Part shown: piece by piece, positions 7,547 through 59,071 of the stretch
Layout of the letters: each line of letters opens with the position of its first letter
Numbering within the stretch: the stretch's first letter is position 1
Source: a virus
Lineage: Duplodnaviria; Caudoviricetes
IMG/VR virus record: IMGVR_UViG_3300021403_000007
Span: 495-64,494 of that record
Direction: 5' to 3' (one strand)
DNA length: 64,000 bases
Made by a program: the position numbers and the translations under genes
The notes under the pieces: generated by a model
Databases searched by the model: none
What the model was told of the DNA's origin: nothing
Seen by the model: only the letters and a program-made list of their open reading frames with translations

Positions 7547-7548
7547 CC

Positions 7549-41665: not shown

Positions 41666-42976
41666 TTATGTTTGGTCGAGTTGTTTCGGGAGTAACACCT
41701 TGTCACCGAACGGGATGTCATGGTTCTTAATCGTACACCAGATGACTGGGTAGGGTGGCGGCAGGAGGGGAAATGCACCCTCTAAGTCTGTGAGGTATAC
41801 CAAGACCTCTGGCTCAAGTCCCTCTTGCGCTACCCGCTCAAACACCGGACAGAAGTCAGTCCCACCTCCACCTTTGATTTTACGCATCATGTCATCGGGT
41901 GTATCAAGCTCAACATACTCATTCACTGCCGCATCACATTGCATGAACACCAATGTACGTGGACGCGCTTGCTCCATGAGTCCTACACCCTCAGTGCAGA
42001 ACATGTCCATAGTTTTCTGGTTGATACTCCCAGAGTTATCCACCACGAACACGATTGTCTCGCAGCCATACTTTACTTTCGATGGTGAGCCTATGCCTCT
42101 AAGCATCAACTCATTGTCGAGTGTAGACCATGTACTAAAGTCAGCGCCCATCCGTCGTGACATGGTGACTGTCAAGTGTTCACGCCAGTCAACTTGTGGC
42201 TCCAATAACTTAGAGAGCCCACGCTCTAGCGCCGCTGGCAATCGGCCTTGCGCCTTCGCACTGGCAAGAGCGGCAGTGAGGGCGTTGTCCCAGGCTTGCG
42301 GGTTACGTGCCTCTCGCGCTTGTGCTGGCGTCTTACCCGTGCCCTTACCAGGTGTTAAGTGCTCGTCGAAGCTCTTATCACCACCACCGTTGCCAGATGG
42401 CTTGGGCTGACCCTTACTCCCAGAGTTAGGTTTATTTTGTTTGTATAGTTTCCTGTACGCGGTGGTCAAATCATCTTGGTAGGTTATTAGTTGGGGCTCA
42501 TGCCAACAGTCCTTTGGCGCTTCCCCCACCTTGCCGCGCTTCAACATGTCATTGATAAGACAGTCAGCGGCGACTTGCATGACTTCGCTAACATAAGGGA
42601 GTTTCATGCCATCAGGGTACAGGATGTATCCGAGTTGTGCGAACCGATACATCATGCCACAATGATTGAATATACCATGACAGATTTCATGGCAAGCAAT
42701 AAACACCCGCTGTTGTAACGTATGCTTGAAATATTCTGTTGGATTAATAAACATGAACTGATCATTAGTGGCGGCAATAGGAATTTCGTCTGTGAACCAT
42801 GCCAACTCACGATCTTTATCCTGCATCATGCGGAACCATACATCGGCAAAGGCGGGCTGGTTCACCAATAGCGCTGTACGCGTCTCCATCCATAGTTTTG
42901 CCTGTTGTGGCGTTATGGGTAACTTGGGCCACTTCTCACAGCTAGTCTCGACCTTGAACGCGCCAATCTCGCCCAT
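41666..42976 (-). CDS. Metallopeptidase-like + vWA domain protein (DUF2201-like)
   Basis: AATND, HEICH, VVDNSGS, GGGGTDF, YLTDLEG. Confidence 0.88.
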   Translation of the reverse strand: MGEIGAFKVETSCEKWPKLPITPQQAKLWMETRTALLVNQPAFADVWFRMMQDKDRELAWFTDEIPIAATNDQFMFINPTEYFKHTLQQRVFIACHEICHGIFNHCGMMYRFAQLGYILYPDGMKLPYVSEVMQVAADCLINDMLKRGKVGEAPKDCWHEPQLITYQDDLTTAYRKLYKQNKPNSGSKGQPKPSGNGGGDKSFDEHLTPGKGTGKTPAQAREARNPQAWDNALTAALASAKAQGRLPAALERGLSKLLEPQVDWREHLTVTMSRRMGADFSTWSTLDNELMLRGIGSPSKVKYGCETIVFVVDNSGSINQKTMDMFCTEGVGLMEQARPRTLVFMQCDAAVNEYVELDTPDDMMRKIKGGGGTDFCPVFERVAQEGLEPEVLVYLTDLEGAFPLLPPPYPVIWCTIKNHDIPFGDKVLLPKQLDQT

Positions 42977-42977
42977 G

Positions 42978-43178
42978 TTACTCTCCCCGTTCTAAGCGGA
43001 CCAATTTTAGTGCTTTTGGTTGGGTTTCGACAATGCCGGATAATACGTGTTTCCATAATCCGGCGCGACGATAGGGTTTCCAATGAGCTTGCCAGAGATA
43101 ACCTCTCTCTTTTTCGCGTTTAGCTAGAACCAGGTCGTCAATTTCGCGAGCCCGAATAATTTTTGGTGTCTTTGCCAT
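42978..43178 (-). CDS. Hypothetical protein
   Basis: Tight packing between neighbours. Confidence 0.6.
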   Translation of the reverse strand: MAKTPKIIRAREIDDLVLAKREKERGYLWQAHWKPYRRAGLWKHVLSGIVETQPKALKLVRLERGE

Positions 43179-43603
43179 TAGCCCTCACTCCCATCACTCT
43201 CAGAGTAATACGTGTCAACGCGTTGGTCGAACAAAGTTAAATTCGTAGTACCAACATTGTCATCGACAATTGACGCCGTGATAGTTGGTGATCGCTCCGC
43301 TAGCATAGCGAGTTGTGCGTATAAGTCTGTCGCACTGCTGCGTAGCACCTCTGTGTATACCCCGCGCATAGCAGGGTCATGTGTAGGTATGTCGGCTCTG
43401 ACATGGATGGTAAAGTGTACACGCATGGTTGCTCTCCTTCCTTCTTCCTTGGCTCGGTCTTGCTCCAGCCTCCGCCACACTTCTTTGGCTATGTGCTTGA
43501 GTAAAGCCTCTAGCTCTGGACCATTCCCTTGCATATACATTCTATGCAGCTTCTCTCTTGTGGTCTCGATCATATCCTTCCACAATTGCGATGAGATTGG
43601 CAT
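43178..43603 (-). CDS. Hypothetical protein (start uncertain: 43540 or 43426)
   Basis: Strong RBS before ATG 43426. Confidence 0.55.
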   Translation of the reverse strand: MPISSQLWKDMIETTREKLHRMYMQGNGPELEALLKHIAKEVWRRLEQDRAKEEGRRATMRVHFTIHVRADIPTHDPAMRGVYTEVLRSSATDLYAQLAMLAERSPTITASIVDDNVGTTNLTLFDQRVDTYYSESDGSEG

Positions 43604-44672
43604 TCGCTTTTGTCCATGCTTTGAACTCGGGCATAACCAACACGCCCACGTTACGGTCCCGTATCATCTTCACCATCATGAACTGGAACTCGTTCGGCAG
43701 ACGGGACATGAGTGTCGCCAGCGCTGCCGCATCATGGGGCTTGGCCCAGTCAGCCAGCTTGTATCCCAGCAAGCGCAAACGATCTGGCTCCAATGGGATG
43801 GACACTGTTCCGGGATTGGCGATACATTCTTCGTAGGATGGAAGCTCTTGCGCCATGCGGAAGTGCATGAACAGTTGCTCGGCGTTCTCCTTGCCAATCC
43901 CACCAGCAATGAGTGATTGTGTTCCCACGTCGAGTGGTATCTTACTCAGAGAGTAAAGAAACATTCTGGCTTTCAAGTAGGTGTTCGCTTGTGCCAGTGA
44001 CCTAGGAGTGCAGTATGGTCCTTGGATTGCTGGTGCCTCCTGAAACAATATATGCGGGAACGTTTCGCCAAACGCAATAATCTCTGGCAATACTTTGTGT
44101 GTACGTGCCCAGTCAACCCACGCTTCACTGCTGTCTCTGACTGTGACCAATATCTGCGAGTTGATAATAAAGTCAAACGTTTTCGTGCCACCATTGCGTG
44201 AACCCAAAGGATTGCCAGCACTCCACACGACCCAGCCGGGCGGCAACCAATGCGTGCCAACTCGCTTGAGTAGCTTCATATCGCGTGTGAGCTTGCGCTC
44301 CTCGGGGTTCATCTTATCTTCTTCGTCGATAAAGATAATACCCCCAGAGTAAGAGTCAATCGGTCGGCCTTCACGCGTGATCCACCAATACGGCAGAGAG
44401 AAGTGACTGACTTTCTTTTGGAGAGTGCCGTCAACATTCATCTCCATAAACCCACATAGCCACGGCAGAGTGACGGTTAGTCCGTTGATATACACGAACC
44501 CATAGTCACCATCGGGATCAATCGTCTTAAGGATTGCAGGCGACTGGTTCATTATAGTCGTCTTGCCGCGACCGGCAGGAGACTCAAGGTGAATTGAGGG
44601 GCCATCGGGCTGGCTGGAAGCCAAGTACCATTCAGGGATGCGCTCGGCGATTTCGTTCAGTGTCAGTGCCAT
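43542..44672 (-). CDS. MoxR-like AAA+ ATPase
   Basis: Walker A SPAGRGKTT, Walker B IIFIDE, AGN sensor, TPRS; adjacent vWA gene. Confidence 0.85.
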   Translation of the reverse strand: MALTLNEIAERIPEWYLASSQPDGPSIHLESPAGRGKTTIMNQSPAILKTIDPDGDYGFVYINGLTVTLPWLCGFMEMNVDGTLQKKVSHFSLPYWWITREGRPIDSYSGGIIFIDEEDKMNPEERKLTRDMKLLKRVGTHWLPPGWVVWSAGNPLGSRNGGTKTFDFIINSQILVTVRDSSEAWVDWARTHKVLPEIIAFGETFPHILFQEAPAIQGPYCTPRSLAQANTYLKARMFLYSLSKIPLDVGTQSLIAGGIGKENAEQLFMHFRMAQELPSYEECIANPGTVSIPLEPDRLRLLGYKLADWAKPHDAAALATLMSRLPNEFQFMMVKMIRDRNVGVLVMPEFKAWTKANANLIAIVEGYDRDHKREAA

Positions 44673-44709
44673 TGGTTTGCTCTCCTTTTGGTTTCTTACT
44701 ATAAGAGTA

Positions 44710-44754
44710 AGTATACACTACAACCTGACTGCTGTCAAGCAACCTATGGTTGTA
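44710..44754 (-). promoter_or_regulatory. Sigma70 promoter with TACAAC-N24-GTTGTA inverted repeat
   Basis: Minus strand TTGACA-gcagtcaggttgtagtg-TATACT. Confidence 0.8.
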
Positions 44755-44755
44755 T

Positions 44756-45025
44756 TTACTGGCGGCAGGACGTAGGAAATTGGATGCAGTTCATCTGCTG
44801 TTCGAGATAACGCCGATCAGCATCTAGCTGTCGCTGGAAATAAAGACGGTCAGCGTCATCACGTTCTTCCCGTCGCTGTCGTGCTTGCTCACTATTACGA
44901 AGCATTTGTTCAGTCTGCATTTCCTGAAATGTTTCGTTGAGCCTGTCAATGCTATCGGATAAGTCGCCAGCATGTACAGGTGTGAAGGTGAACACGATAG
45001 CGGCAGTGAGAAGAATGCGTCGCAT
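44756..45025 (-). CDS. Hypothetical exported protein
   Basis: Signal peptide MRRILLTAAIVFTFTPVHA; GGGAG RBS. Confidence 0.65.
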   Translation of the reverse strand: MRRILLTAAIVFTFTPVHAGDLSDSIDRLNETFQEMQTEQMLRNSEQARQRREERDDADRLYFQRQLDADRRYLEQQMNCIQFPTSCRQ

Positions 45026-45049
45026 GTTTTACTCCCATAGTAAAAGAGA

Positions 45050-45290
45050 ATGGGGGAGAGATCGCACGCGCTTCACCCTCCCCCACCATTGCTTGACTTT
45101 CGTATGCTCCTTACGGGGAGACTGCATACGCCAGGACGTGACGCTGGAACGTCAAGCAAACCGTTTATTTTACTCCCGTAGTAAGTGTGCAAGTTATCGT
45201 TGTACCATTGTTGGTCGGTGTACACGTCTGACCACTTACGGGGTGAGATACAAGCCCATCCCACATGTTAGCGCACGTTGTGGGCGGCAG
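45050..45290. other. Structured intergenic region (candidate ncRNA or RNA-processing element)
   Basis: Several nested inverted repeats; no convincing ORF. Confidence 0.4.
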
Positions 45291-45376
45291 GGAGAGTTTG
45301 CATACACGTATGTACGCGTCATGGTGATACACTGTACACGCGCAAAAAGCGAGCGCAAAAAAATGATAGTTGCGTG

Positions 45377-45682
45377 TCATAAGTCTTTCACTCCTTGCAC
45401 TGTCGTCCAGTATTTCTTTATGTTCGCCAGCAAGTCACGCTTGTATGACCTGATATGTTCTGTGCTGATAACTCTATGGCTTTCAGTTATCAGGTCGTAG
45501 CGATAGACTGGCAGACCCTTACCCCAAAATTGTTTGTATCTGCGCTTGTAAGCGTCTGTCAGTGTAACGCAATAGTTCTTGTCAAGATTAATTTTTTTAA
45601 TTCGAGCAACAAACAAAGGTAAATCAATTGGTTGTTTGGTCATACGTTGATTGCGATAGGCGCGAGTGCTATATGTTTTCAT
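45377..45682 (-). CDS. Hypothetical basic protein
   Basis: ORF track 45377-45709; likely start at MKTYST. Confidence 0.55.
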   Translation of the reverse strand: MKTYSTRAYRNQRMTKQPIDLPLFVARIKKINLDKNYCVTLTDAYKRRYKQFWGKGLPVYRYDLITESHRVISTEHIRSYKRDLLANIKKYWTTVQGVKDL

Positions 45683-45694
45683 AGCGACCCCCAT

Positions 45695-45730
45695 AAAAAA
45701 ACCCCCCACTACCTTGCGGCAGTGAGGGGA
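45695..45730 (-). terminator. Rho-independent terminator after the 343-aa early gene
   Basis: Imperfect GC stem followed by a T7 tract on the minus strand. Confidence 0.5.
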
Positions 45731-45756
45731 TTGTTTACTCTAAGAGTAAGAGAAGG

Positions 45757-46788
45757 TTATTCAGTCTCGCCTTCCTCTTCAATCACCTCTTCGTCTTCGA
45801 AGGCTTCAGCGTCGTCACCTTCAACTTGTTCGCCGTTCTCGGCGTCTTGGATTGCCTTCTCACGATCCTTCGCCGCCTTGTCGGCAGCAGCTTGCGCCTT
45901 CTTTGCCGCTGCATCGAGTTTCTTCTGGCGAATTGCTTCGATGTCGGCATCGCGTTGGTTGAGCGCTTCGAGATCGTTCTCCGCGATCACTGTGCGCAAC
46001 GCATCCACAATGTTCGGCAACGCATCGTGCGTGATTGGATCGCGCGCCATATGTGTAGACGTCTCCGCCTTGCCGCGCATAGCACTCTCAACCAAGTTGA
46101 GCGCTTGAATAAGAACTGTTGCTCCCGTAGTAACCTTTTCCAACTTGTAGTCGAGCATTAGTTCTTTCATTTGATCGGCAGTGAGAGCAACGCCCTGCTG
46201 TTCAGGCTTGCACTGTGCGACCGCGATAGCGTACAGCGAAGTATACGTAGACCGATACTTCACATGCGGGCCGTACTCCTCGGACTTAACCAACTCCGCA
46301 TGAAGATCTTTGGCGTCATCAAAAACCTTCAATGCCTCGTCTTCATACTTCGTACCAAGGCGAATGAACGCACGCACCTTGCTTAGTTGGGCAGAAGTGG
46401 AGTTCTTTTCGGCGCCCGTGACGCCAGTTGACGCTTTCTGGCTGGACTCCATGAAGGCTGTATAGAAGTCTGAAGCGTCCTGAGACTTGCCGGTCGCGGT
46501 GATTGTGCCATCAGCACCACCCCGAACAAGCACGCGTGCAAACGAAACGTGCGATCGCTTGCCCGCTCCGTCCTGTTCACCGAACTTTCGCGCCTCGGCA
46601 AGCAACGCTTTCTTGTCTTGTGAGCGGTTTGGGGGCACCTGATTTTGCGTTGGCTTGACCGGTGCTTGTGCGGCAGGGGTGGGAGTGACTGGAATGCCGC
46701 CAGCGTTTACTGGAACTGTCGGTGCGGACGCAATATCGTCGAGCGCTTGTGCGTCGGCATCCTTAAGTTTTAGGGGTCGAATTGCCAT
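45757..46788 (-). CDS. Early hypothetical protein, acidic tail
   Basis: 343-aa ORF with RBS GGAGAGTAA, its own promoter and a terminator. Confidence 0.8.
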   Translation of the reverse strand: MAIRPLKLKDADAQALDDIASAPTVPVNAGGIPVTPTPAAQAPVKPTQNQVPPNRSQDKKALLAEARKFGEQDGAGKRSHVSFARVLVRGGADGTITATGKSQDASDFYTAFMESSQKASTGVTGAEKNSTSAQLSKVRAFIRLGTKYEDEALKVFDDAKDLHAELVKSEEYGPHVKYRSTYTSLYAIAVAQCKPEQQGVALTADQMKELMLDYKLEKVTTGATVLIQALNLVESAMRGKAETSTHMARDPITHDALPNIVDALRTVIAENDLEALNQRDADIEAIRQKKLDAAAKKAQAAADKAAKDREKAIQDAENGEQVEGDDAEAFEDEEVIEEEGETE

Positions 46789-46840
46789 TTGGTTTACTCT
46801 CCGTGTTGGGTTTGGCGTGATTGCCTGATACCCGTTGCCT

Positions 46841-46868
46841 ATTTTACTCCTGTAGTAAGATTTGTCAA
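46841..46868 (-). promoter_or_regulatory. Sigma70-like early promoter with the palindromic site in its spacer/-10
   Basis: TTGACA-N16-TAAAAT with TTACTCCTGTAGTAA at 46844-46858. Confidence 0.65.
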
Positions 46869-46899
46869 TAGGCTAATAGCGGCAGAGTGAGGGTTGCCG

Positions 46900-47360
46900 C
46901 AAATAAATTTGTCTACAGTGTTAACATGTAACATTTTCGGAAAATCAGTAAATGATGTCGCCTTAATCGCCATACAACCTGAGTTTTGATTATTTCGGTT
47001 GTACACTTTTAACGATTATGAAACATGTTGTGTTCATTTATGTATTTGTTTTTATTATGTTTTTTGGCAAAAAAAAATAAACATGTTGTGCCCAAAACAG
47101 GGTAGGGGTCGGATGCGCTCACGCGTAGCGTATGCGCGTAAGAGCAAGGAAAAATTTTACTATAGGGTATATATATATATAAAATCATATTTAATAAGTA
47201 TTATTAGAATAAACTTTCTTTTCACTGCCGTTACTTAGGCGCAACTTTAAAAGTAATACTTTATGTAGATTTATCAATGATATCAATGGGTTACGGGGAG
47301 GAACTAGTTTGTATGATTGTGTTCATTTTGCTAACCAGAAGAGTATAGCACGATTTCTGT
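46900..47360. other. AT-rich non-coding region; candidate replication origin or packaging/terminus region
   Basis: (TA)n at 47168-47181; direct repeats AAACATGTTGTG (47021, 47079) and TTGTGTTCATTT (47028, 47317). Confidence 0.45.
47281..47293 (+). promoter_or_regulatory. IHF consensus match
   Basis: TATCAATGGGTTA fits WATCAANNNNTTR. Confidence 0.35.
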
Positions 47361-47659
47361 AAATCAGAAATGTTTACGAAAACGATTGCGCTGTTCCTGC
47401 CTTGCGGCAGAAAGCATTGGCCGGTCGAGTTGAACTTGTTTTTTGAACGCGATTTGGTTAGCACGCAGGTAGGGTTTTTGTGTTATACATTGGGATTTGA
47501 GTTTTTCGTGTTTTGGCGCAAGTGCGCGATTGGCGCTGGATGACATATTAGTGAACCTTTCGTTTGCGTGAGATAAAGAACGAAAAGCCAAATCGCCCGA
47601 TACGGACGAAATGTAACCCGCCAATTTTTTTGTATTGGAACATTTTTTACTCCTGTAGT

Positions 47660-48170
47660 AAACAAGTCCAATATATTGGACTTGTCATTGGGGTAATAAC
47701 GTAAAACAAGCTTGCGGGGATTGCTAGTCCCCGCCAACTCCACAATAGGAAGTTATTAGCTTGTCACGGTTTAGGCATTGAACCGTGAACCGTCTCTTAG
47801 AACTTACTCTAAGAGTAACCCTCTTGAATAGCAGGGAGGGCCGCGTACACGCGGGTATCACCTGTGAGGGTATCAGGCACGGACGCAACTGTGCGCCAAG
47901 TAGGCCGTAACGCGCGGGCTTCGCCATATCGCCCTTGAACGCGGGTCCGCTGGATTAACGACGGGACACGTCAGACCATGATATCCCACCGACGGGAAAG
48001 GCAACTCCCGCAACATTCGACTGCCCGATTACCTCCTTTCATCTTCCTAGCCTATCCACGGGGAATACTTTTGGGAGTAAGGCTCAGAGCTTTGGACATC
48101 CGGCGCCCCATGATGGACAAGGCCAGGGGTAAGCCTGGCCGCGTTTAGGTACTTTGAAAATACCTAAGAC
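47660..48170 (+). ncRNA. Candidate large structured ncRNA
   Basis: About 12 hairpins; G-U pairs and GNRA-like loops favour the plus strand; no credible ORF. Confidence 0.45.
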
Positions 48171-48190
48171 CCAAAAATCAACCCAGCCAT

Positions 48191-48289
48191 TCACCATCGT
48201 ACCCTTTTAGCAAAACTAATATAAAGTGCCACGAAAATCAAGAAAACAATAAAACCACCAAGCGCTATCCATCCCAAGATTACCCACAT
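48191..48289 (-). CDS. Single-TM micro-protein, 32 aa
   Basis: Manual translation MWVILGWIALGGFIVFLIFVALYISFAKRVRW; RBS GGAGGT. Confidence 0.6.
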   Translation of the reverse strand: MWVILGWIALGGFIVFLIFVALYISFAKRVRW

Positions 48290-48290
48290 A

Positions 48291-48647
48291 TCAAACCTCC
48301 TTACCTTCCAACACCCCCACTCTTTCCTCCAACCGTCTAAGCACATTCACCAGCGCCTGCACCCTCTCACTCACCCCACTCATCTCTGCCGTCATTTTAA
48401 CGTGAAAACCCCTAAGCTCTAATCCAATCTCCTTTAATTCCTTCGCCCCCTCCGCTGCCTCCCCAATCTTCTCCCTTAACTCCTTCAAAAGCTCCACTGC
48501 CGCCTTCTCCCGCTTTTCAAGTTCTTCCAAACGCTGGTCAACGGTCGCGTTCCACACTTCATATTGGAAAGCGATATCACTTAGCTCCTTATAATACTTT
48601 TTAGCGTCTTCTGCTCTCTTAGCCCTCACTGCCGCATTATCAACCAT
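48291..48647 (-). CDS. Coiled-coil hypothetical protein
   Basis: E/K/L-rich heptads; AGGAG RBS. Confidence 0.7.
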   Translation of the reverse strand: MVDNAAVRAKRAEDAKKYYKELSDIAFQYEVWNATVDQRLEELEKREKAAVELLKELREKIGEAAEGAKELKEIGLELRGFHVKMTAEMSGVSERVQALVNVLRRLEERVGVLEGKEV

Positions 48648-48675
48648 CTTTCCTACTCCTGTATTAAGCCTTTAG

Positions 48676-48698
48676 TGCCCGGACTTGATCCGGGTATC
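48676..48698. repeat. REP-like hairpin resembling alphaproteobacterial intergenic repeats
   Basis: TGCCCGGACTTGATCCGGGTATC. Confidence 0.45.
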
Positions 48699-48791
48699 AG
48701 ACACATTTCCTGATAATCAGGAAATGTACTACATGTTAAACACGTTTAATGTTTTTCAGAAAACCTCACTAAAAACGTGATCATTATTAAA

Positions 48792-48836
48792 TACAACCTG
48801 TGGTTGCTTGACAGGGGTCAGGTTGTATGCTATACT
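48792..48836 (+). promoter_or_regulatory. Sigma70 promoter upstream of terL with TACAAC-N24-GTTGTA inverted repeat
   Basis: TTGACA(48808)-ggggtcaggttgtatgc-TATACT(48831). Confidence 0.8.
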
Positions 48837-48916
48837 AATAATCGGGTTATACTGACACGCTGTAAAGATTTGTCAAGGATTTATTTTCACCCTTACTACA
48901 GGAGTAACAATCAACC

Positions 48917-50431
48917 ATGCGCCCCCACCAATATATGGGAGTCACCAGGAGTTTTAATTATAAAGCTCCACCCACAATAACACGGTTCATGCAATCAAAT
49001 TGTTTTGGGCGTCTTCTTTGTGGCCCCGTTGGGTCCGGTAAAACTACGGGTGCATTGGTAGACTTAACCCGAAGAATGAAAGAACAGATGGCAGCGTTTG
49101 AAGACCCGATACGTCCCAATAACCCAAGAAGGTTTACCCGTTATGCGATTATACGACAGACACTAAAACAATTAAAAGACACAGTACTTAAGGACGCTCT
49201 ATCGCGTTACGCCCTTATCGCTGATTGGCGGGTGTCTGAAAGTACTTTATACTTTAGGGAGGGCGATGTACATAGTGAGTGGTTATTTGTCCCCCTTGAC
49301 GAACCTGAAGATAAAAAACGACTTCTCTCAACCAATCTCACTGCCGCTTATGTAAACGAGTGTATTGAAATCGACCTTGATCTCCTTAGTGACATTGCAG
49401 GACGTTGTGGACGATACCCTAATGAAGAACTTGGTGTGCCAACGTGGAAGGGGATCATCTGTGACACGAACATGCCAGTCGAGCAGTCGCCCTGGGCAAG
49501 GTTCATCAAAAAGGGGCTCATAGGCGAAATCCCTGAATGGGAGATATTTCGGCAACCAGGAGGGCGACATGCTGATGCAGAAAACTTAGAGCATCTCGAA
49601 CAGACACCTGATACGGTGTTACTCCCAGAGTCAGACCCACGGCGTAGAGAGCAAGGAAGGAAATATTATGAACGACTCGTTGCAACAGGAACCACTGATT
49701 ACGTACGTCGATACGTTGATGCAGAGTTTGGACGCGATCCGGGTGGTTCAGCAGTGTTTGGAGAAAGCTTCAAATATGAGTTCCACGTTAGAGCAAGTCT
49801 TGTTCCTGTTGATGACCGAATGCTTATTATCGGGCAAGACTTTGGACGAAATCCTGGGGCAGTCATTACACAGCTTTCTAATCGAGGCCAATTACTCGTA
49901 CTCAAGGAAGTCCCGTCTACCTCCATTGGACTTAACCAACACATTGAGGAAAGACTTAAGCCCGTTTTGGCAACGCCGCGCTTCGCAGGAAGACGATTCG
50001 TCGTCGTAGGCGACCCAGCGGGGATTGCGCGTAGTAGTTTGTTTGAGTTGAATGAGTTCAACCTTTTACACTCAAAAGGTCTACCCGCAGTCCCTGCACC
50101 CTCCAATGACATTTATCGCCGTCTTGCCGCCGTAGAGAATTTCTTTTTGGGGAACGTGCGGGGTGAAGGGAAAATACTCATTGACGAGGGTGAGTGCCCT
50201 GTACTTGTAGAAGGACTACATGGGGCCTACCGGTTCCCCCGTAATAAGAATGACGTGGACCGTCCCCTGCCGGAAAAAGATACGCCTTGGTCGCACGTTC
50301 AGGACGCGCTGCAATATGCGTGCATGACGGCAGGGAGCACTGAGGCGTATTCGCAAGCTTACTCCCAGACCAAGCGGGCGCGTGACATCAAACCCCGTCG
50401 TGCAGCTTTTGACTCTAGAGCGTGGACTTAA
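48917..50431 (+). CDS. terL: Terminase large subunit
   Basis: Walker A GPVGSGKT, Walker B AYVNE, nuclease GQDFG..GDPAG..SHVQDALQY. Confidence 0.92.
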   Translation: MRPHQYMGVTRSFNYKAPPTITRFMQSNCFGRLLCGPVGSGKTTGALVDLTRRMKEQMAAFEDPIRPNNPRRFTRYAIIRQTLKQLKDTVLKDALSRYALIADWRVSESTLYFREGDVHSEWLFVPLDEPEDKKRLLSTNLTAAYVNECIEIDLDLLSDIAGRCGRYPNEELGVPTWKGIICDTNMPVEQSPWARFIKKGLIGEIPEWEIFRQPGGRHADAENLEHLEQTPDTVLLPESDPRRREQGRKYYERLVATGTTDYVRRYVDAEFGRDPGGSAVFGESFKYEFHVRASLVPVDDRMLIIGQDFGRNPGAVITQLSNRGQLLVLKEVPSTSIGLNQHIEERLKPVLATPRFAGRRFVVVGDPAGIARSSLFELNEFNLLHSKGLPAVPAPSNDIYRRLAAVENFFLGNVRGEGKILIDEGECPVLVEGLHGAYRFPRNKNDVDRPLPEKDTPWSHVQDALQYACMTAGSTEAYSQAYSQTKRARDIKPRRAAFDSRAWT

Positions 50432-50495
50432 CACGTTAACCCCTTCGGGGCCAATGGCGCGCGCAAAGCGCTGCACCCACTAAGAAAGAAAGATC

Positions 50496-51137
50496 ATGAA
50501 AGTAACAATTGAAGAAACACCAAAGAGCGCACAGGAGCTACAATGGGTGCGTAGGAGCAAACATAATCTTTTCGCACGAAGTGTTGATGGTGTACGCAAG
50601 TATCATATTATTGGTGAAGAGGATAGACATGGGATAATAGGTTGGCGGCTAGCTTGGCGTGAAAAACAAGGCGAACCAACTAAAGATAGTGCTGGTACGT
50701 TTATGAACCAATGGGAGGTACAAGAAATTGCACAACTCATTGAGAATGAACACGAAATAAACGAGGAAGAACTTGTTCAAATAGCGGCAGGGAATGCGGT
50801 TACTATTGGGGGTAACACTTGGAGATACTACGGGGTCCATGATAACAAGCGACTATGGATCGCCGTGGCACCTGATGAGCAAAGCGCCTACGTGGCCACA
50901 TGTGACTATGATGATCCAAAGAGGCGATGGGTTGTAACAAAGCGTACTTGGACAACATCTCTTAAAGAAGATGGTATGCAGACCCTTGTAATAAATCGTG
51001 TTGGCACCTACAAAGACTTACAAACAGCCAAGCGTTCAGCGGGTGCTCTAACTCCCCCTTCTAATACTCAAAGTTCCTCAAACTCGTCATTAACGAAGAC
51101 CGAAGACACTTCACCAAAAATATTACCCTCAGAGTAA
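50496..51137 (+). CDS. Hypothetical protein
   Basis: 213-aa ORF; overlaps the convergent gene at its 3' end. Confidence 0.65.
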   Translation: MKVTIEETPKSAQELQWVRRSKHNLFARSVDGVRKYHIIGEEDRHGIIGWRLAWREKQGEPTKDSAGTFMNQWEVQEIAQLIENEHEINEEELVQIAAGNAVTIGGNTWRYYGVHDNKRLWIAVAPDEQSAYVATCDYDDPKRRWVVTKRTWTTSLKEDGMQTLVINRVGTYKDLQTAKRSAGALTPPSNTQSSSNSSLTKTEDTSPKILPSE

Positions 51138-51595
51138 AGTTCACCTTCGATCATGGGAGCGCCAATAGAAATATTATCTTGAGCGCCATCAGAGTATGTA
51201 ATGTTCAAATTAAAAACATTACCCATTGACCCGCCACCTAGTGATCCCGCTGCTGGTTCCAGTGCGCCTAGCCCGGCTATTCTGGCTAACTCAGCTAAGG
51301 CTCTAACTTTCGCGCTAAGAGGCGCGTCGCTACTGTCTCTTGCCGCTCTAAAAATATGTATCATTAATTCTTCAACTATTGCTGCTGCATTTGCTTTAAC
51401 GCGTTTGGGGGTGTTATCTGCCCCCCTCCACTCAACTTTGCGCGCCGTCAGTGCCGCGTTAAAGCTAGGTATTGTTTTAAGGTAATCATATTCTTCTTGA
51501 GTTACTCCCGTGAGTTTTAATATTTCATCCTCTTCAAGGATATCTTTCGCCAATTCGTTGATCAGATTACGTATTTTTATTTCACTGAGGGTCAT
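51068..51595 (-). CDS. Hypothetical helical protein, possibly terminase small subunit
   Basis: HTH-like N-terminus, helical middle, FNLNI beta tail; lies between terL and portal. Confidence 0.5.
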   Translation of the reverse strand: MTLSEIKIRNLINELAKDILEEDEILKLTGVTQEEYDYLKTIPSFNAALTARKVEWRGADNTPKRVKANAAAIVEELMIHIFRAARDSSDAPLSAKVRALAELARIAGLGALEPAAGSLGGGSMGNVFNLNITYSDGAQDNISIGAPMIEGELYSEGNIFGEVSSVFVNDEFEEL

Positions 51596-51728
51596 AAAAA
51601 TACCTTATTTCTGCCACATTTCTGCCTTATTTTCGCCACAATTATCCCGCACAATTGTGTCGATTTTAAGGCGGATTTGCTCTCCACCCTAAAATAAATG
51701 GGGACCACCCATGTAGTTACTCCCATGA

Positions 51729-54146
51729 GTGGTCCCCGCTTCTTTACTCGATAAATATCGAGCGCTATCTCAAAACGCCCAATTAGTGAGTGAGCGCGAC
51801 TGTAGGAAGCGCGAACCACTAAAAGATACTCCAAGAGTAAAGAATGATCTGGTGCCAACTGGGGTCTTAAGGGTCGTCGGCGGGGCCGATACAACCCAGC
51901 AAGTACAGCGAGAGAACGCTGTCCGGGCTCAGAGCCAACTTCCCCCTGCTTCAGAGCTTACTGGGTTAGCCGGTTTTATCACTGACCAGTTTATCTTGAT
52001 GCGTCGGCACAGGGACAACACCTCTGCCGGTTGGTCGCACAGATTGTTGATGGCGCTTCGCGCCTTTAATGGTGTGTACGAGAACGACGTAATAGAACAA
52101 ATCAAAAAGTTTGGTGGGAGCCAAGTTTATGCTCGCATAATCGCAATGAAAGCGCGAGGGACAACTTCGTTATTAAGGGATGTTTATTTGGGGGCTGAAC
52201 GTCCCTGGGGGTTAGAGCCTTCGCCTGATCCCCAGGTTCCACCCGAGATAATGAGCGCGATCCAGCAACTTGTTAAAAGCGAAATACAAGGCGCGGTAAA
52301 AGCCCATCAAGATGCGACGCAGTTACAAGCCGCTCACTTGAGCGGCCTTAGTGCAATGCATGAGCAGAATGCAAACCAACCAGCAGTAGCCCATGCGCAA
52401 GCGCCCCAAGCTCCACCGCCTCCCCAACCCTTACCTGATGCAAACGCGATACGCGATAGATTCACCGAACTTGAGACTGCTGCGCGAGATGCAGCAAAGC
52501 GTAACGCTGCTAAGAAAGCAAAAATTGCAGAAGATAAAATACAGGAGATACTTGCTCAAGGTGGCTTCTATACTGCTTTTGCTGAATTCCTCGTTGATTT
52601 ACCTATATTTCCTTATGCGGTAATTAAAGGTCCGGTAGTAAGAATTAAGACCAGTGTTGACTGGCAGCGCGACCCAGTTACTCTTAAGAGTACTGCACAA
52701 ACTACACAAAAACCTATTTTATGTTGGGAGCGTGTCAGCCCCTTTGATATCTACTGGACACCTGGGGTTGCGGATATTGGCGACGCCAATATCATTGAGC
52801 GCTCTAGGTTAACCCGGAAAGAACTCAATGACCTCCTCGACCTGCCGGGTTATGATCAAGCAGCAGTACGGGCTGTCTTGGACGACTATGGACGTGGTGG
52901 ACTGGTTGACAACTGGGATCAAACCGATGCCGAGCGGGCCATTTTGGAGTCGCGAGAAAATCCCAGGTTTAATCAGAGTGGACTTATTGCATGTCTCCAA
53001 TTTAGTGGTTGGGCACAAGGTAAAAGTTTGCTTGACGCAGGTTTGCCTCCAGCGATGATTAGCGATGCGACGCGTGATTATTTCATTGAAGCTTGGCTGA
53101 TAGGGCGCTATGTTATCAAAGTTCAACTTTCCCCGTCGCCGAGGAAACGTCATCAATATTACGTTACCTCTTTTGAAAAAGTTCCGGGCACTGTCGTTGG
53201 GAACGGACTCCCAGACTTACTCGCTGATATTAGTACCGTGGCGAATGCCACTTTACGAGCACTTGTTAATAATCTTAGTATTGCAAGCGGACCTCAAGTT
53301 GTCGTCAGTGACGACCGACTCGCAGACGGGGAGGATGGTGAAGACTTATATCCATGGAAACGTTGGCATGTCAAGTCTGATCCATTTGGTAATAACACTC
53401 AGGCGGCGATCACGTTCTGGCAACCCCAGGCTAACTCTCAAGAGTTAATGTCGGTTTACACAGCTTTTAGTACATTGGCCGACGAGATGTCCGCTATACC
53501 AAAGTTTGTGCAAGGTATGCCAGGGGCAGGGCCGACCGGTCGCACAGCTTCTGGGTTGGCGATGTTGATGCAGAACGCTGCAAAGATTCTTCAAACGGTA
53601 GCGTCGAATATTGATCGGGATGTGGTTGAGGGCTTACTAACAAACCTTTTAGATATGATTATGCTCACTGATACTTCGGGGTTACTTGATGGGCAAGAGG
53701 AAGTTAGAATATTGGGTGTCAACGTTGCGATGGCGAAAGAGGCCCAAATTCAGCGCGAGCTTGAGTTTCTGCAAATCACCGCCAACCCGATTGATATGCA
53801 AATCATCGGACCCAAAGGTCGTGCCATTGTTCTTAAACAGGTCGCCGATCATCTCAACATTCCCGGTGCTGATATTGTTCCGTCCGAAGAAGAGCTTGAC
53901 GATCAGCAAAAGATGCAACAAGCGGCAGCGGCGGGTGCAGCACAGGGGCAACAGGCTTCTGGAAACACCCAACTTGCTGGACAACACGCCCAAAACGCTA
54001 GACAGGCTCAGGGGCAACAAGCACCTCGACCCGCTCAAGGCGGTCCACAGCTAAACACACAACACCCAGCAGCGGCAGGGCCGCCAGCGGGTACAGGTCC
54101 AAACGTTCAAGGCATGACTACGCCTCAAGCTAGTCCAGGAGAGTAG
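51729..54146 (+). CDS. Portal protein (true start possibly GTG 51852)
   Basis: Size and position; WERVSPFDIY, GNGLPDLL..Q..N, RTASGLAMLM motifs; Gln-rich tail. Confidence 0.88.
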   Translation: MVPASLLDKYRALSQNAQLVSERDCRKREPLKDTPRVKNDLVPTGVLRVVGGADTTQQVQRENAVRAQSQLPPASELTGLAGFITDQFILMRRHRDNTSAGWSHRLLMALRAFNGVYENDVIEQIKKFGGSQVYARIIAMKARGTTSLLRDVYLGAERPWGLEPSPDPQVPPEIMSAIQQLVKSEIQGAVKAHQDATQLQAAHLSGLSAMHEQNANQPAVAHAQAPQAPPPPQPLPDANAIRDRFTELETAARDAAKRNAAKKAKIAEDKIQEILAQGGFYTAFAEFLVDLPIFPYAVIKGPVVRIKTSVDWQRDPVTLKSTAQTTQKPILCWERVSPFDIYWTPGVADIGDANIIERSRLTRKELNDLLDLPGYDQAAVRAVLDDYGRGGLVDNWDQTDAERAILESRENPRFNQSGLIACLQFSGWAQGKSLLDAGLPPAMISDATRDYFIEAWLIGRYVIKVQLSPSPRKRHQYYVTSFEKVPGTVVGNGLPDLLADISTVANATLRALVNNLSIASGPQVVVSDDRLADGEDGEDLYPWKRWHVKSDPFGNNTQAAITFWQPQANSQELMSVYTAFSTLADEMSAIPKFVQGMPGAGPTGRTASGLAMLMQNAAKILQTVASNIDRDVVEGLLTNLLDMIMLTDTSGLLDGQEEVRILGVNVAMAKEAQIQRELEFLQITANPIDMQIIGPKGRAIVLKQVADHLNIPGADIVPSEEELDDQQKMQQAAAAGAAQGQQASGNTQLAGQHAQNARQAQGQQAPRPAQGGPQLNTQHPAAAGPPAGTGPNVQGMTTPQASPGE

Positions 54147-54157
54147 GAGCGACTACA

Positions 54158-54376
54158 ATGGCTACTAGTGAAGAACTTCGTATGGAGAGTGAACGGGTTG
54201 AAGCACAAGCGCGACAAACGCTGACTGACATGAAAGCAAGACTGGAATCGCTTGCTACAGAAGTGGAAACACTTTTGCAGGCGTTTACGGCTTGGGAAGA
54301 AAACTATACTAGAGATCAGGAGAGACGAGCCCAAGAAAGACATCCCCAACACCCCGATACAAAACCCAGAAGGTAG
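54158..54376 (+). CDS. Hypothetical coiled-coil protein
   Basis: AGGAG RBS. Confidence 0.65.
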   Translation: MATSEELRMESERVEAQARQTLTDMKARLESLATEVETLLQAFTAWEENYTRDQERRAQERHPQHPDTKPRR

Positions 54377-54451
54377 GGTTTTTACTTTTTAGTGGTTCGT
54401 CCTAGCGCAAGCGCAGACGAACGTTACTACTGGAGTAACAGGAGAGCGATA

Positions 54452-54739
54452 ATGCCAAAGCGAACTGGGATGTTAGGGGCAGGATCAAGGGCGATGGGGG
54501 GTGGGGGTAAGAAGCCCAACATCCCCAGGACCACGATGATGGGCACGCCTCCTGCCCCTGGTAGTCCTGGTGGTATGCCAACTGGTCCAGGTGCAATGGG
54601 TAGGAGGGCTGCACCCGGTGCTGGCATGGCTCCTGGCGGTGCCAGTGGGATTGGGGGGTTTAAAAAGGGCGGCCATGTAGGGAAAGAGAAAAAAGAAGAA
54701 ATGCGGGAGAAAAAAGACCGCCGCCACGAAAAGAAATAG
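54452..54739 (+). CDS. Small Gly/Met/Lys-rich basic protein
   Basis: RBS AGGAGAG before ATG 54452; GFKKGGHV motif. Confidence 0.65.
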   Translation: MPKRTGMLGAGSRAMGGGGKKPNIPRTTMMGTPPAPGSPGGMPTGPGAMGRRAAPGAGMAPGGASGIGGFKKGGHVGKEKKEEMREKKDRRHEKK

Positions 54740-54748
54740 GAGAGCTAA

Positions 54749-54931
54749 ATGGCAAAGGTTGCTGGCCGCACGACACACGGCATGAAAGGGAAAGAGTGGC
54801 CCGCTGAGAAGGGCATGACTGTCCATGCCAGCGGACACCGTGGCAAGGTGAAGGGTGGCGGCCTTGACCCTATTTCGTCCAAGACTTCCAACGCAAAGGG
54901 TCGAGTCCCAATGCACAAGAAGGCGACTTAA
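54749..54931 (+). CDS. Small basic protein
   Basis: RBS AGGAGAG. Confidence 0.65.
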   Translation: MAKVAGRTTHGMKGKEWPAEKGMTVHASGHRGKVKGGGLDPISSKTSNAKGRVPMHKKAT

Positions 54932-55066
54932 GTGGCAAAAGCGGTGCCTGGGGTTACAACGCAAAACCTTAAAACCAAAGCACCGCACAAGCACGACCCG
55001 CTTCCGACAGTTCCAAAGAAAGTTCCCAAACTGAGCAAGGTGAAAACGAAATGGCCAAAGTCATAA
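54932..55066 (+). CDS. Small Lys/Pro-rich protein, 44 aa
   Basis: Manual translation from the GTG directly after the upstream stop: (M)AKAVPGVTTQNLKTKAPHKHDPLP... Confidence 0.5.
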   Translation: MAKAVPGVTTQNLKTKAPHKHDPLPTVPKKVPKLSKVKTKWPKS

Positions 55067-55284
55067 AGAAGTCTGAAGACCCTGGGTTTTTTGCCCATGG
55101 GGGTAAGACGAAAATGTTTGGCAAGGGCTCTGCTGGTCCGGCCAAAGCAGCGATCTCTGGTAAGGAGAGTAATGACCTTGGCGGCGGTGAATGGGCCAAG
55201 GGTGGTTCCCAACATATGTTTGGGAAGGGCTCGGCTGGCCAGAAAACTCCCGGAGTAAGCGGGAAGGAATCGCAAGTCGGGTGA
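55051..55284 (+). CDS. Small basic protein with an internal tandem duplication
   Basis: Two copies of [FW]AxGGxxxMFGKGSAGxxxxxxSGKES. Confidence 0.7.
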   Translation: MAKVIKKSEDPGFFAHGGKTKMFGKGSAGPAKAAISGKESNDLGGGEWAKGGSQHMFGKGSAGQKTPGVSGKESQVG

Positions 55285-55325
55285 GCGTTTACGCGAACAC
55301 GCGAAACGCATAAAGGATAACGCTC

Positions 55326-55844
55326 ATGTCCATAACCTACGTCGATATCGACTATAGTGGACGGGTTGCTGCAATCATCGCCGTAGGTACGGCGTTGGGG
55401 GCTCCTGCTAACCTTATGCCTGCTCCGTGGGCGTCACCGGGAGAGTTTTTGTGCCTCCAATACATAAATAACCTTCGGGTGTTTATGGGAGAAGCCCCGC
55501 TCACCAATCTCGACTATACCGGGTTTCAGGCTGCGCTGAATGCGCTTTCAGCTATGGCACCTGCACCACCTGCTACGCCAGTAGTGACACCTGGACAAAC
55601 TTTCAACATCACTCTGCCGGTAGCAACGAACCAGATTATTGGTTCGGTAGCCGCTAGTAACAGTCCAACAGCTTTTGCCATCAATCCCCCTAATACTTTT
55701 TTCGCCATTAGCAATGCTGGACAGCTTACGGTGACGGCGTTGGGTGCGGCAGGGATTGCGGCGGGAATGACGAACATAATGGTCGAAGCTACCAATGCAG
55801 GTGGCACCAGTCCAGCGGTGAATGTAGGTATATCTGCTGCTTGA
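55326..55844 (+). CDS. Putative capsid decoration protein with cadherin/Ig-like C-terminal domain
   Basis: GQTFNI...IGSVAA...FAISNAGQLTV...VEATN. Confidence 0.6.
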   Translation: MSITYVDIDYSGRVAAIIAVGTALGAPANLMPAPWASPGEFLCLQYINNLRVFMGEAPLTNLDYTGFQAALNALSAMAPAPPATPVVTPGQTFNITLPVATNQIIGSVAASNSPTAFAINPPNTFFAISNAGQLTVTALGAAGIAAGMTNIMVEATNAGGTSPAVNVGISAA

Positions 55845-55865
55845 ACATAATACTATGAGAGTAAA

Positions 55866-56246
55866 GTGGTGGTTGCGCATACAAATATACCCTACCAGTT
55901 CGATGTCACGAACACGACCAACGTCGTGAATATACTTGTGGAAAAGATCATCGAATTGGCTACGGACAACGGCCTCATCCTGCCGGATGAAGTACGGCCT
56001 TTTACGCGTGTTGACTTGGCTGAAGTCGCCGATGCCATGCGGAAAGTTGCCGACTGGCAAACACTTGTTGTGAACAGGTTAGGGTTGTCACCTCGATTAA
56101 TTCCAAGAGTTTACGAACAATGCGATTATGGTTCGATTATTTCATATGCAGGGTACTATGGTGATAAAATGAACGCGATTATTGATGAACTCCAAACACA
56201 GGACTCGTCAATAGCTTATGACGTACCAAAAGAGAAGGTTTACTAA
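55866..56246 (+). CDS. Hypothetical protein
   Basis: Operon continuity. Confidence 0.65.
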   Translation: MVVAHTNIPYQFDVTNTTNVVNILVEKIIELATDNGLILPDEVRPFTRVDLAEVADAMRKVADWQTLVVNRLGLSPRLIPRVYEQCDYGSIISYAGYYGDKMNAIIDELQTQDSSIAYDVPKEKVY

Positions 56247-56247
56247 A

Positions 56248-56532
56248 ATGGATCGAATTAAAAAGGGTGATTCGAAGCCACGATGGTACGACAAACCGGA
56301 AGATGATTTCGATAAACATGAATGCCCGGACAGCGGTGGATGTTACCAAGAGCTTTCTACATTGGGGGCATTCGCTGAATGTGTTGATGGATCGCGTGAC
56401 AAGCGTCTCCATGAACGCGACTACTGCAAGGAGTCACTCAAGAACAATCGAGAGGATGAAGGTTTGGTAATTAAACCCGACACCAGTGGACCGCCGTTCA
56501 CGAATGTCTCTCGTCCCCATCGGGTAATGTAA
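56248..56532 (+). CDS. Hypothetical protein
   Basis: ATG at 56248 after the upstream stop (track start 56218). Confidence 0.6.
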   Translation: MDRIKKGDSKPRWYDKPEDDFDKHECPDSGGCYQELSTLGAFAECVDGSRDKRLHERDYCKESLKNNREDEGLVIKPDTSGPPFTNVSRPHRVM

Positions 56533-56533
56533 C

Positions 56534-59050: not shown

Positions 59051-59071
59051 GCCTCCCCATACGGATACCTT

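What the first reader, a model, noticed from the sequence alone, without database searches (positions are those of the whole stretch)
47660..48170. About 500-nt hairpin-dense non-coding locus: candidate novel large phage ncRNA
Seen in order: a perfect 24-bp palindrome ACAAGTCCAATA/TATTGGACTTGT (47662-47685); a junction closed by ACAAGCT/AGCTTGT enclosing GCGGGGA/TCCCCGC; then TCACGGTT/AACCGTGA, CTCTTAG/CTAAGAG (competing with the palindrome at 47804), CCCTC/GAGGG, CCGCGT/ACGCGG, GCACGG/CTGTGC, a CGGG..AG-GCAA-CT..CCCG tetraloop, GGCCAGG/CCTGGCC and TTAGGTA/TACCTAA. Several stems extend by G-U pairs only on the plus strand. The region is GC-richer than its flanks and has no credible ORF. I do not recognise tRNA, tmRNA, RNase P or ribozyme cores. 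Inference: a structured RNA (decoy, packaging or regulatory RNA), or alternatively ssDNA hairpins at the genome end or origin.
Basis: partly seen in the sequence, partly recalled or inferred. Interest (0 to 1): 0.75.

Follow-up and report, generated by a model that had tools for sequence, protein, structure and literature searches.

The report
Conserved 0.5-kb structured RNA-like phage element
A roughly 490-base protein-free stretch next to the DNA-packaging gene of an uncultivated soil phage keeps its hairpins through compensating mutations in related phages and matches no catalogued RNA family, so it is probably a new large structured phage RNA whose job is still unknown.

Summary
The hairpin-dense, GC-richer, ORF-free stretch is real (about 47698-48190). 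It matches no Rfam 15 family, tRNA or tmRNA. It is conserved with compensatory changes. On 6 sequences (about 3 lineages), 50 pairs are 95% paired against 85% in shuffles (0/500), and 12 pairs changed on both sides. Consensus folding energy beats column shuffles by z -5.5 to -5.8. Its terL-proximal domain recurs in 38 of 89 terL-anchored phage loci and in 0 of 59 unrelated loci. In 12 loci a conserved small basic gene (M-x-NR-x-L..K..K.K.Q) follows it.

The 24-bp palindrome is not part of it: it is absent in a 93.5%-identical relative.

The flanking genes are co-oriented, terminator-like 3' ends occur in 5 of 13 loci, and consensus folding is better in 5 of 6 informative clade comparisons. G-U evidence is mixed.

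Soil RNA-library contigs from 4 runs cover its centre, but they give no strand and do not exclude DNA carry-over.

Best reading: a new large structured phage RNA at the head of the early region, either stand-alone or a leader. Function is unknown. This scan had not noted it on other DNA.

The parts
47698..48190 (-). The conserved structured element (candidate RNA, about 490 nt). The strand assignment is probable, not proven.
   Evidence: Homology to L015 spans 47688-48181, and blocks are conserved with L005, L006 and L013. Pair counts are and alignment folding z. No Rfam match.
48145..48167 (-). terL-proximal hairpin TTAGGTA-N9-TACCTAA inside the family-wide motif TTTAGGTACCTTnnAAATA followed by an A run (plus-sense reading). 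It would be the 5' hairpin of a minus-strand RNA.
   Evidence: The sequence is conserved in distant loci. The 3' arm is not complementary in several members, including L015, L104 and L109.
48114..48119 (-). TGGACA box. TGG.C is invariant in all 37 aligned sequences.
   Evidence: invariant columns T103 G104 G105 C107 of the first sequence.
48121..48140 (-). Hairpin GGCCAGG / CCTGGCC. It is a GC-rich, variable hairpin in relatives.
48066..48079 (-). Hairpin TACTT-TTGG-GAGTA, the local form of the family hairpin xTTACTC-GGGG-GAGTAAx.
   Evidence: Read. The arms co-vary: TTACTC/GAGTAA, GTTACC/GGTAAC, CTTACTC/GAGTAAG, TTACC/GGTAA.
48030..48036 (-). TACCTCC (CACCTCC in L005; GATCYTCC in distant loci). 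It is Shine-Dalgarno-like GGAGG on the minus strand and anti-SD-like on the plus strand.
   Evidence: The resemblance to the 16S 3' end is recalled, not tested.
47992..48011 (-). Stem capped by GCAA. Three of its 6 pairs changed on both sides between clades (ACGGGA/TCCCGC against CTGAGC/GCTCAG).
   Evidence: helix 6.
47876..47906 (-). Conserved central stem-loop GGCACGGACGCAACTGTGCGCC..GCC.
   Evidence: helix 4: 11 pairs, 1 changed on both sides. It is the longest conserved block.
47794..47815 (-). 8-bp hairpin with a conserved loop. Three pairs changed on both sides: CTCTTAGA, CCCACAGA and CTTACAGA, each with a matching 3' arm.
   Evidence: helix 2.
47764..47788 (-). Hairpin TCACGGTT / AACCGTGA with the conserved loop TAGGCATTG.
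47703..47734 (-). GC-rich hairpin GCGGGGA / TCCCCGC. On the minus strand it is followed by AAGCTTGTTTTACG, making it the terminator-like 3' end of a minus-strand RNA.
   Evidence: terminator-like, minus, 47734..47714. (helix 1: 3 pairs changed on both sides). (the same feature in L015).
47662..47685 (.). Perfect 24-bp palindrome. It is not part of the conserved element and is probably a protein-binding (operator-like) DNA site or a small inserted repeat.
   Evidence: Absent in L015: 47661 and 47688 are adjacent there. Not conserved in L005. Unique in the window.
47593..47609 (-). Second terminator-like hairpin followed by TTTGGCTTTT, between the element and the small gene.
47364..47546 (-). 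Conserved small basic protein gene (60 aa, MSSSANRALAPKHEKLKSQ...) that follows the element in 12 loci.
   Evidence: L105 and L117 differ at synonymous sites (read). No Pfam or PHROG family.
48191..48346 (-). Small membrane-peptide ORF ending directly before the element. An internal ATG at 48298 has an AAGGAGG ribosome-binding site.

Best explanation
Positions about 47698-48190 hold one member of a previously uncatalogued family of large (about 0.5-0.7 kb) structured non-coding elements. It most likely acts as RNA read from the minus strand.

The family sits at the boundary between terL and the early region in a clade of uncultivated phages of about 60-65 kb.

Read on the minus strand:
- It begins with the family's most conserved domain: the TAGGTA/TACCTA hairpin motif, the UGUCCA box and a GC-rich hairpin.
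- It runs through a series of hairpins with conserved loops, among them a GGAGG motif.
- It ends in a GC-rich hairpin with a U-rich tail.
- A palindromic DNA site and the gene of a small basic protein follow.

Shown: non-coding, conserved, compensatory base changes, no known family.

Inferred: that it is RNA, that the strand is minus, and the function. My best guess for function is a structured RNA made at the start of the early programme. It would be either a discrete terminated ncRNA or a leader that controls read-through into the small basic protein and the early genes, possibly working with that protein.
For: Non-coding:
- Short ORFs only.
- Indels between clades are mostly not multiples of three.

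Structure conserved:
- One search counted 50 pairs on 6 sequences. 95.0% of cells are paired against 85.1% in shuffles (0/500).
- 12 pairs changed on both sides (1/500).
- Covariation score is 0.297 against 0.128 (0/500).
- Slid controls give 26-46% paired and 0-2 such pairs.

RNAalifold energy against column-shuffled alignments, as z plus / z minus:
- A3: -5.5 / -5.8
- L083/L088: -5.5 / -8.4
- L105/L117: -1.4 / -4.3
- L152/L108: -1.7 / -5.2
- L091/L121: -1.5 / -3.7
- L081/L085: -4.0 / -2.7

Family: the terL-proximal domain is found in 38 of 89 terL-anchored entries and 0 of 59 unrelated loci.

Synteny: the small NR..K..K.K.Q gene starts 486-760 nt after the hairpin on the minus sense in 12 loci.

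Minus strand:
- Flanking genes are on that strand.
- Terminator-like hairpin plus T tract at the minus-sense end in the window, L015, L105, L117 and L108, that is 5 of 13 loci examined.
- Minus z is better in 5 of the 6 comparisons listed above.
- On helices predicted for both senses, 5 pair positions are G-U only in the minus sense against 3 in the plus sense.

Not known: 0 Rfam families at gathering on the window and on 19 related loci apart from one tRNA. Nothing relevant at E up to 10 or up to 0.5.

RNA libraries: 4 of 4 soil metatranscriptome runs hold an identical contig over 47823-48064.
Against: No direct proof of a transcript. The RNA runs are contigs only, give no strand, show a depth like that of other phage genes (2-4), and do not exclude DNA carry-over.

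Strand evidence conflicts:
- Without the palindrome, the plus strand folds slightly better in the window (z -3.48 against -2.89).
- L081/L085 favours plus.
- By eye, the short helix CYTCC/GGRG next to a co-varying hairpin, and the TTACT/AGTAA hairpin, carry G-U only in the plus sense in several lineages (read).
- Opposite-sense terminator-like hairpins occur in 3 of 13 loci: L092, L107 and L005.

Other points against:
- No sigma-70-like promoter was found directly upstream on either strand.
- Only about 3 independent lineages underlie, and its structure was derived from those same sequences.
- Three further clade pairs gave no significant folding signal.
- RNAalifold found no consensus on the 37-sequence MAFFT alignment.
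- Short-loop inverted repeats could in part be protein-binding DNA sites.
Confidence: 0.55

Rival explanations
1. The same conserved element acts as an RNA read from the plus strand. Examples would be an antisense or convergent ncRNA carrying an anti-Shine-Dalgarno-like CCUCC motif.
For: - The plus strand folds slightly better in the window without the palindrome.
- L081/L085 favours plus.
- G-U-only pairs in the plus sense occur in the CYTCC/GGRG helix and the TTACT/AGTAA hairpin in several lineages (read).
- A tRNA-Thr lies just downstream in the same sense in L091.
Against: - The plus-sense end is a hairpin followed by an A run, not a terminator.
- No plus-strand promoter was found upstream.
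- In the window, a plus-strand transcript would run head-on into the minus-strand genes at 48191-48647.
- Alignment folding favours minus in 5 of 6 informative comparisons.
Confidence: 0.17
2. The element works as DNA. It would be a packaging or terminus region, a replication origin or a cluster of protein-binding inverted repeats at the terL/early-region boundary. The hairpins would be cruciform or single-strand DNA structures, or symmetric operators.
For: - Evidence for the two strands is nearly balanced.
- The conserved end always faces terL, whatever the orientation of terL.
- The terminal motif is conserved as sequence even where its arms no longer pair.
- GTTAC/GTAAC palindromes and the window's 24-bp palindrome lie next to the element.
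- No terS gene was recognised near terL.
Against: - About ten different hairpins, with conserved loops and different stem sequences, keep pairing through double changes over 0.5 kb. That is unusual for operators, pac sites or cos sites.
- Alignment folding differs between the strands in several clades. A purely double-stranded feature would not do this.
- Terminator-like ends occur.
- RNA-library contigs cover the centre (weak).
Confidence: 0.15
3. It is an ordinary long intergenic or untranslated region whose hairpins are chance or relics, for example decayed genes or mobile palindromes, and it has no function of its own.
For: - The single-sequence z is only about -3 without the palindrome.
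- Three clade pairs show no significant folding signal.
- The palindrome is indeed a local insertion.
Against: - Sequence blocks are conserved where flanking DNA is not detectably alike.
- The domain is found in 38 of 89 loci whose TerL is only 46-56% identical.
- Compensatory changes and shuffle controls support a maintained structure.
Confidence: 0.05

Closest known systems
GOLLD and ROOL RNAs (large ornate non-coding RNAs, often phage- or prophage-encoded)
   Same: Size class of several hundred nucleotides. Many hairpins with conserved loops. Phage-encoded, with no ORF and unknown biochemical function. The context comes from the abstract of PMC12286853 seen in the listing; the rest is recalled.
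   Different: No match to any Rfam 15 model at gathering or relaxed thresholds. Different hosts and habitat (soil and freshwater viral contigs). Fixed position at the terL/early-region boundary, next to a conserved small basic protein gene. Multimer formation is untested.
Phage lambda pL leader with nutL followed by gene N (recalled textbook knowledge)
   Same: On the minus strand the order is: structured untranslated stretch, then the first early gene, which encodes a small basic protein with a conserved N-terminal basic helix-like motif. Terminator-like hairpins are nearby.
   Different: The element is two to three times longer and far more conserved than a nut leader. No boxA/boxB pair was identified. 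The small protein matches no family. No promoter was found directly upstream. No anti-terminator pairing was found.
phi29 pRNA (packaging RNA; recalled)
   Same: A phage-encoded structured RNA gene near one end of the gene map and near the packaging genes.
   Different: pRNA is about 170 nt and, by recall, is held in Rfam; nothing matched. This phage has a classical TerL and a family A DNA polymerase. The element's relation to the orientation of terL is not fixed.
Candidate structured RNAs predicted from IMG/VR (PMC10690425)
   Same: They come from the same kind of source (viral contigs) and the same kind of evidence (covariation in intergenic regions).
   Different: The passages read state lengths of 29-151 nt, so the whole 0.5-kb element is not one of them.

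Membership tests
Any Rfam 15 family (by recall this includes GOLLD, ROOL, OLE, HEARO, raiA, group I and II introns, RNase P, tmRNA, pRNA, 6S) | A covariance-model score at or above the family's gathering threshold. | tested here: not met
   0 matches on the whole window. On 46700-48950 at E up to 10, only 5 chance-level hits of 11.9-18 bits against gathering scores of 43-127. 19 related loci gave only one tRNA. 5 loci at E up to 0.5 gave one unrelated weak hit outside the element.
tRNA / tmRNA | Cloverleaf or tmRNA architecture detected by ARAGORN. | tested here: not met
   0 genes in the window. In 36 related loci there was one tRNA-Thr and one doubtful call, neither inside the element.
Group I / group II intron | Insertion in a host gene whose two exons join into one reading frame. 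| tested here: not met
   The flanks are complete, separate small genes with their own stops and starts on the minus strand and no ORFs on the plus strand. No intron model matched.
Protein-coding gene (standard or recoded) | A long open frame conserved in relatives, with indels in multiples of three. | tested here: not met
   (at most 67 aa from a start codon; at most 109 aa stop-to-stop under table 4). The 47-aa ORF is not conserved. Indels of 1, 2, 11, 17, 20 and 23 nt are seen.
Lambda-type N/nut antitermination leader | boxA and boxB elements downstream of an early promoter, and an N protein with an arginine-rich motif that binds boxB. | tested here: inconclusive
   The gene order and the small basic protein fit. 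No promoter was found. No box elements were identified by eye. No family match for the protein. RNA binding cannot be tested with these tools.
Riboswitch or attenuator leader | A terminator stem with a mutually exclusive, conserved anti-terminator pairing. | tested here: not met
   Terminator-like hairpins are present in 5 of 13 loci. In L105, L117 and L108 only short complementary runs of 5-11 nt were found upstream, at unrelated places.
Large structured phage ncRNA (generic kind, not a sequence family) | Non-coding, conserved secondary structure with covariation, and a transcript. | tested here: inconclusive
   The first two features are met. The transcript is only hinted at by unstranded RNA-library contigs.

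The most novel reading that the evidence does not exclude
The element is a new class of large ornate phage RNA made at the very start of infection. It would assemble with the small basic protein encoded next to it into a ribonucleoprotein that acts on the host's transcription or translation machinery. The conserved GGAGG/CCUCC motif could engage ribosomes or Shine-Dalgarno sequences. Alternatively, the terL-facing domain could link early expression to the genome end.
Probability: 0.2. Interest if true: 0.85.

Novelty: new variant of a known kind. Interest (0 to 1): 0.62.

Why it matters
Very few large structured RNAs are known from phages, and none has an understood function. A further family could give an experimental handle on what such RNAs do. 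This one has a fixed place at the head of the early genes, a conserved protein neighbour, and hundreds of likely relatives in soil and freshwater viromes: 544 terL relatives were reported, and the domain was found in 38 of the 89 entries examined.

It would also supply a new covariance model for annotating a stretch that gene callers now leave blank or fill with false ORFs.

If it turns out to be a DNA element instead, it would mark the packaging site or origin of an unstudied phage group.

Tried and rejected
- Known RNA families: rejected.
- Missed gene in another genetic code: rejected.
- Near or distant DNA match in deposited phage genomes: none.
- Exact-pattern scans of viral contigs. One search returned only the 3 known relatives. 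One search returned 62 loci, and nhmmer confirmed only the known relatives among them.
- Prokaryote genomes. The terL scan found nothing. A motif pattern gave 4 hits that nhmmer and inspection showed to be chance matches in coding DNA. No host or prophage was therefore found.
- RNAalifold on the 37-sequence MAFFT alignment and on an 11-sequence subgroup gave no usable consensus. The family is too divergent and GC-run-rich for sequence alignment, so I give no family-wide structure. I built no covariance model.
- Strand from single-sequence z-scores on 5 elements: not decisive. One search timed out and printed nothing.
- Anti-terminator search: nothing convincing.
- sigma-70 promoter directly upstream of the element on either strand: none found in the window, L105, L117 or L098.
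- Phage-encoded RNA polymerase or N4-type hairpin promoters: no RNA polymerase domain in the ten large proteins scanned.
- A pseudoknot between the conserved loop at 47802-47807 and AGTAAG at 48076-48081 is possible. In relatives that sequence forms a local hairpin instead, so I do not claim it.
- RNA runs. The parts of 46800-49000 without contig cover, and the common contig end at 48026 in two runs, are not evidence. That end coincides with a strain indel seen in L015.
- Literature. Two full-text searches found no description of this element. For PMC10690425 I read passages only; its supplements were closed. For PMC12286853 I saw only the listing and the start of the abstract. One preprint from the listing could not be opened.
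- The small basic protein has no Pfam or PHROG family.

Full report
**Context.** The window is nearly all of a 64.5-kb viral contig rated complete.
- terL is at 48917-50431 (+) and the portal gene at 51729-54146 (+).
- Replication genes (family A DNA polymerase, DUF927 primase-helicase, SNF2 helicase) lie on the minus strand further left.
- Strong sigma-70-like promoters point left at 46868-46841 and right at 48808-48836. This agrees with earlier notes e1-6206287 and e1-6206288.
- Between these two promoters lies a short leftward block. It consists of a 118-aa coiled-coil ORF (48647..48291), a small membrane peptide ORF ending at 48191, the finding, and a 60-aa basic protein gene (47546..47364).

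**Observation.**
- The stretch is GC-richer than its flanks.
- It has no ORF above 67 aa, and no long frame opens under table 4 or TAG=Q.
- Folding z-scores with the palindrome were -4.63 (+) and -5.84 (-).
- The 24-bp palindrome inflates these values. For 47698-48190 alone they are -3.48 (+) and -2.89 (-). One sequence alone therefore gives only moderate support.

**Relatives and covariation.** A terL scan of viral and metagenome contigs gave three groups of relatives:
- near-identical copies (L003, L012);
- a 93.5%-identical variant (L015);
- two more distant groups: a TerL-79% clade (L005, L006, L013) and a TerL-75% contig (L008).

Blocks of the element are the only DNA near terL that blastn still aligns between clades. 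L015 lacks the palindrome, so the palindrome is an insertion.

Stems keep pairing through double changes:
- CTCTTAG/CTAAGAG, CCCACAG/CTGTGAG and CTTACAG/CTGTAAG;
- CCGCG/CGCGG against CCTCG/CGAGG;
- ACGGGA/TCCCGC against CTGAGC/GCTCAG.

I then counted pairs on the 50 pairs that RNAalifold predicts for both senses:
- 95.0% of cells pair, against 85.1% in shuffles (0/500).
- 12 pairs changed on both sides (1/500).
- Sliding the partners drops pairing to 26-46%.

Consensus energy beats column-shuffled alignments by z -5.5 (+) and -5.8 (-). Caveats: only about three lineages are involved, and the structure was derived from these same rows.

**A wider family.** I therefore scanned viral contigs with a 16-sequence TerL alignment. 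The scan reported 544 relatives and kept 80.
- Iterated nhmmer found the terL-proximal domain (window about 48012-48184) in 38 of 89 terL-anchored entries and in 0 of 59 unrelated loci.
- Shared motifs, read in the plus sense: ACAnCCTAG, a TTACTC/GAGTAA-type hairpin, a C run, an invariant TGG.C box, a GC-rich hairpin, and TTTAGGTACCTTnnAAATA followed by an A run.
- In 12 loci the element lies upstream of terL, as in the window. In 26 it lies downstream and inverted. The conserved domain always faces terL.
- In 12 loci a small gene with the N-terminus M-x-NR-x-L-x-x-K-x-x-K-x-K-x-Q starts 486-760 nt beyond the hairpin on the window's minus sense. It has no known family.
- One relative has an integrase and an excisionase-like gene between terL and the element.
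- Independent clade pairs also fold better than column shuffles: L083/L088 z -5.5/-8.4, L105/L117 -1.4/-4.3, L152/L108 -1.7/-5.2, L091/L121 -1.5/-3.7, L081/L085 -4.0/-2.7. Three pairs were not significant.
- A family-wide consensus could not be derived from MAFFT alignments.

**Strand: evidence for minus.**
- The neighbouring genes are co-oriented in the window, L005, L008, L098, L105 and L117.
- A GC-rich hairpin plus T tract closes the element on the minus sense in the window (47734-47714), L015, L105, L117 and L108, that is 5 of 13 loci.
- Minus folds better in 5 of the 6 informative alignment comparisons.
- Five pair positions are G-U only on minus, against three on plus.

**Strand: evidence for plus.**
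- The window's own z without the palindrome is slightly better on plus.
- The L081/L085 pair favours plus.
- Several G-U pairs seen by eye in the CYTCC/GGRG and TTACT/AGTAA helices occur only in the plus sense.
- Opposite-sense terminator-like hairpins occur in 3 of 13 loci.

I put minus at about 70%, given that the element is RNA.

**Expression.** Four soil metatranscriptome runs from four studies each hold a contig identical to 47823-48064. One also bridges 48114-48281. Other phage genes are covered at similar depth. Contigs carry no strand, and DNA carry-over cannot be excluded, so this is only a hint.

**What it is not.**
- It is not any Rfam 15 family, tRNA or tmRNA.
- It is not an intron, because the flanks are complete genes.
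- It is not a recoded gene.
- It is not an N4-type hairpin-promoter region, because no phage RNA polymerase was found.
- It is not in deposited phage genomes.
- It was not found in 185,579 species genomes by a terL scan or by one motif pattern.
- No anti-terminator pairing was found.

**Verdict.** This is a real, conserved, structured non-coding element and the first described member of a family spread through a clade of uncultivated phages. It is most likely a roughly 0.5-kb RNA read leftward at the head of the early region. It would be either a terminated ncRNA or a leader tied to the small basic protein that follows it.
- A DNA role (packaging site, terminus or origin) remains possible at about 15%.
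- A plus-strand RNA remains possible at about 17%.
- Function is unknown.
Its interpretation is partly supported, with the palindrome removed and the strand probably reversed.

Noticed in passing
window 47662-47685; L105 about 7546-7577, L117 about 7843-7900 and L108 (tails printed): The window has a unique 24-bp palindrome between the element and the small basic gene. It is absent in L015 and has no other copy in the window. Distant relatives carry long GTTAC/GTAAC-type palindromes at the same relative place. This looks like an operator position that is conserved while its sequence is not.
   Followed up: partly
window 47364-47546 (-) and homologues in 11 loci (alignment A6): A small basic protein family has an invariant M..NR..K....K.Q N-terminus and variable tails. 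It has no Pfam or PHROG match. It is always the first gene after the element on the minus sense.
   Followed up: partly
L105 5252-6634: This relative (TerL about 49% identical) carries a tyrosine integrase and an excisionase-like ORF between terL and the element, so part of the family is probably temperate.
   Followed up: no
L008 150-260: A dense array of GTTAC/GTAAC repeats lies in the AT-rich stretch beyond the small gene. They could be iterons or operator sites.
   Followed up: no
L013 1070-1468 against L005 640-737: L013 has an insertion of about 400 nt relative to L005, flanked by 22-nt inverted repeats, just beside the element.
   Followed up: no
L003 3577-3613 against window 48921-48923: The near-identical copy L003 has about 35 extra bases at the very start of terL. 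This looks like a local duplication.
   Followed up: no
window 48060-48075: The window and L003 are 99% identical overall, yet they differ at 6 of 11 adjacent bases in one hairpin (GGAATACTTTT against GGAGCAACTCC). One RNA-run contig carries the L003 form as a loose end at 48064.
   Followed up: no
L091 7074-7149 (-): A tRNA-Thr (anticodon TGT) lies about 200 nt beyond the terL-facing end of the element, in the element's plus sense.
   Followed up: no
window 48031-48042 (minus strand): AAAGGAGGTAAT on the minus strand is an unusually long Shine-Dalgarno-like run with no start codon at normal spacing. The nearest ATG is 14 nt away and opens a non-conserved ORF. The complementarity to the 16S 3' end is recalled, not tested.
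   Followed up: no
window 42001-62000 in RNA runs X1-X4: Contigs with 0 differences and contigs with 11-26 differences both map to the phage, so at least two strains occur in the same soil RNA libraries.
   Followed up: no
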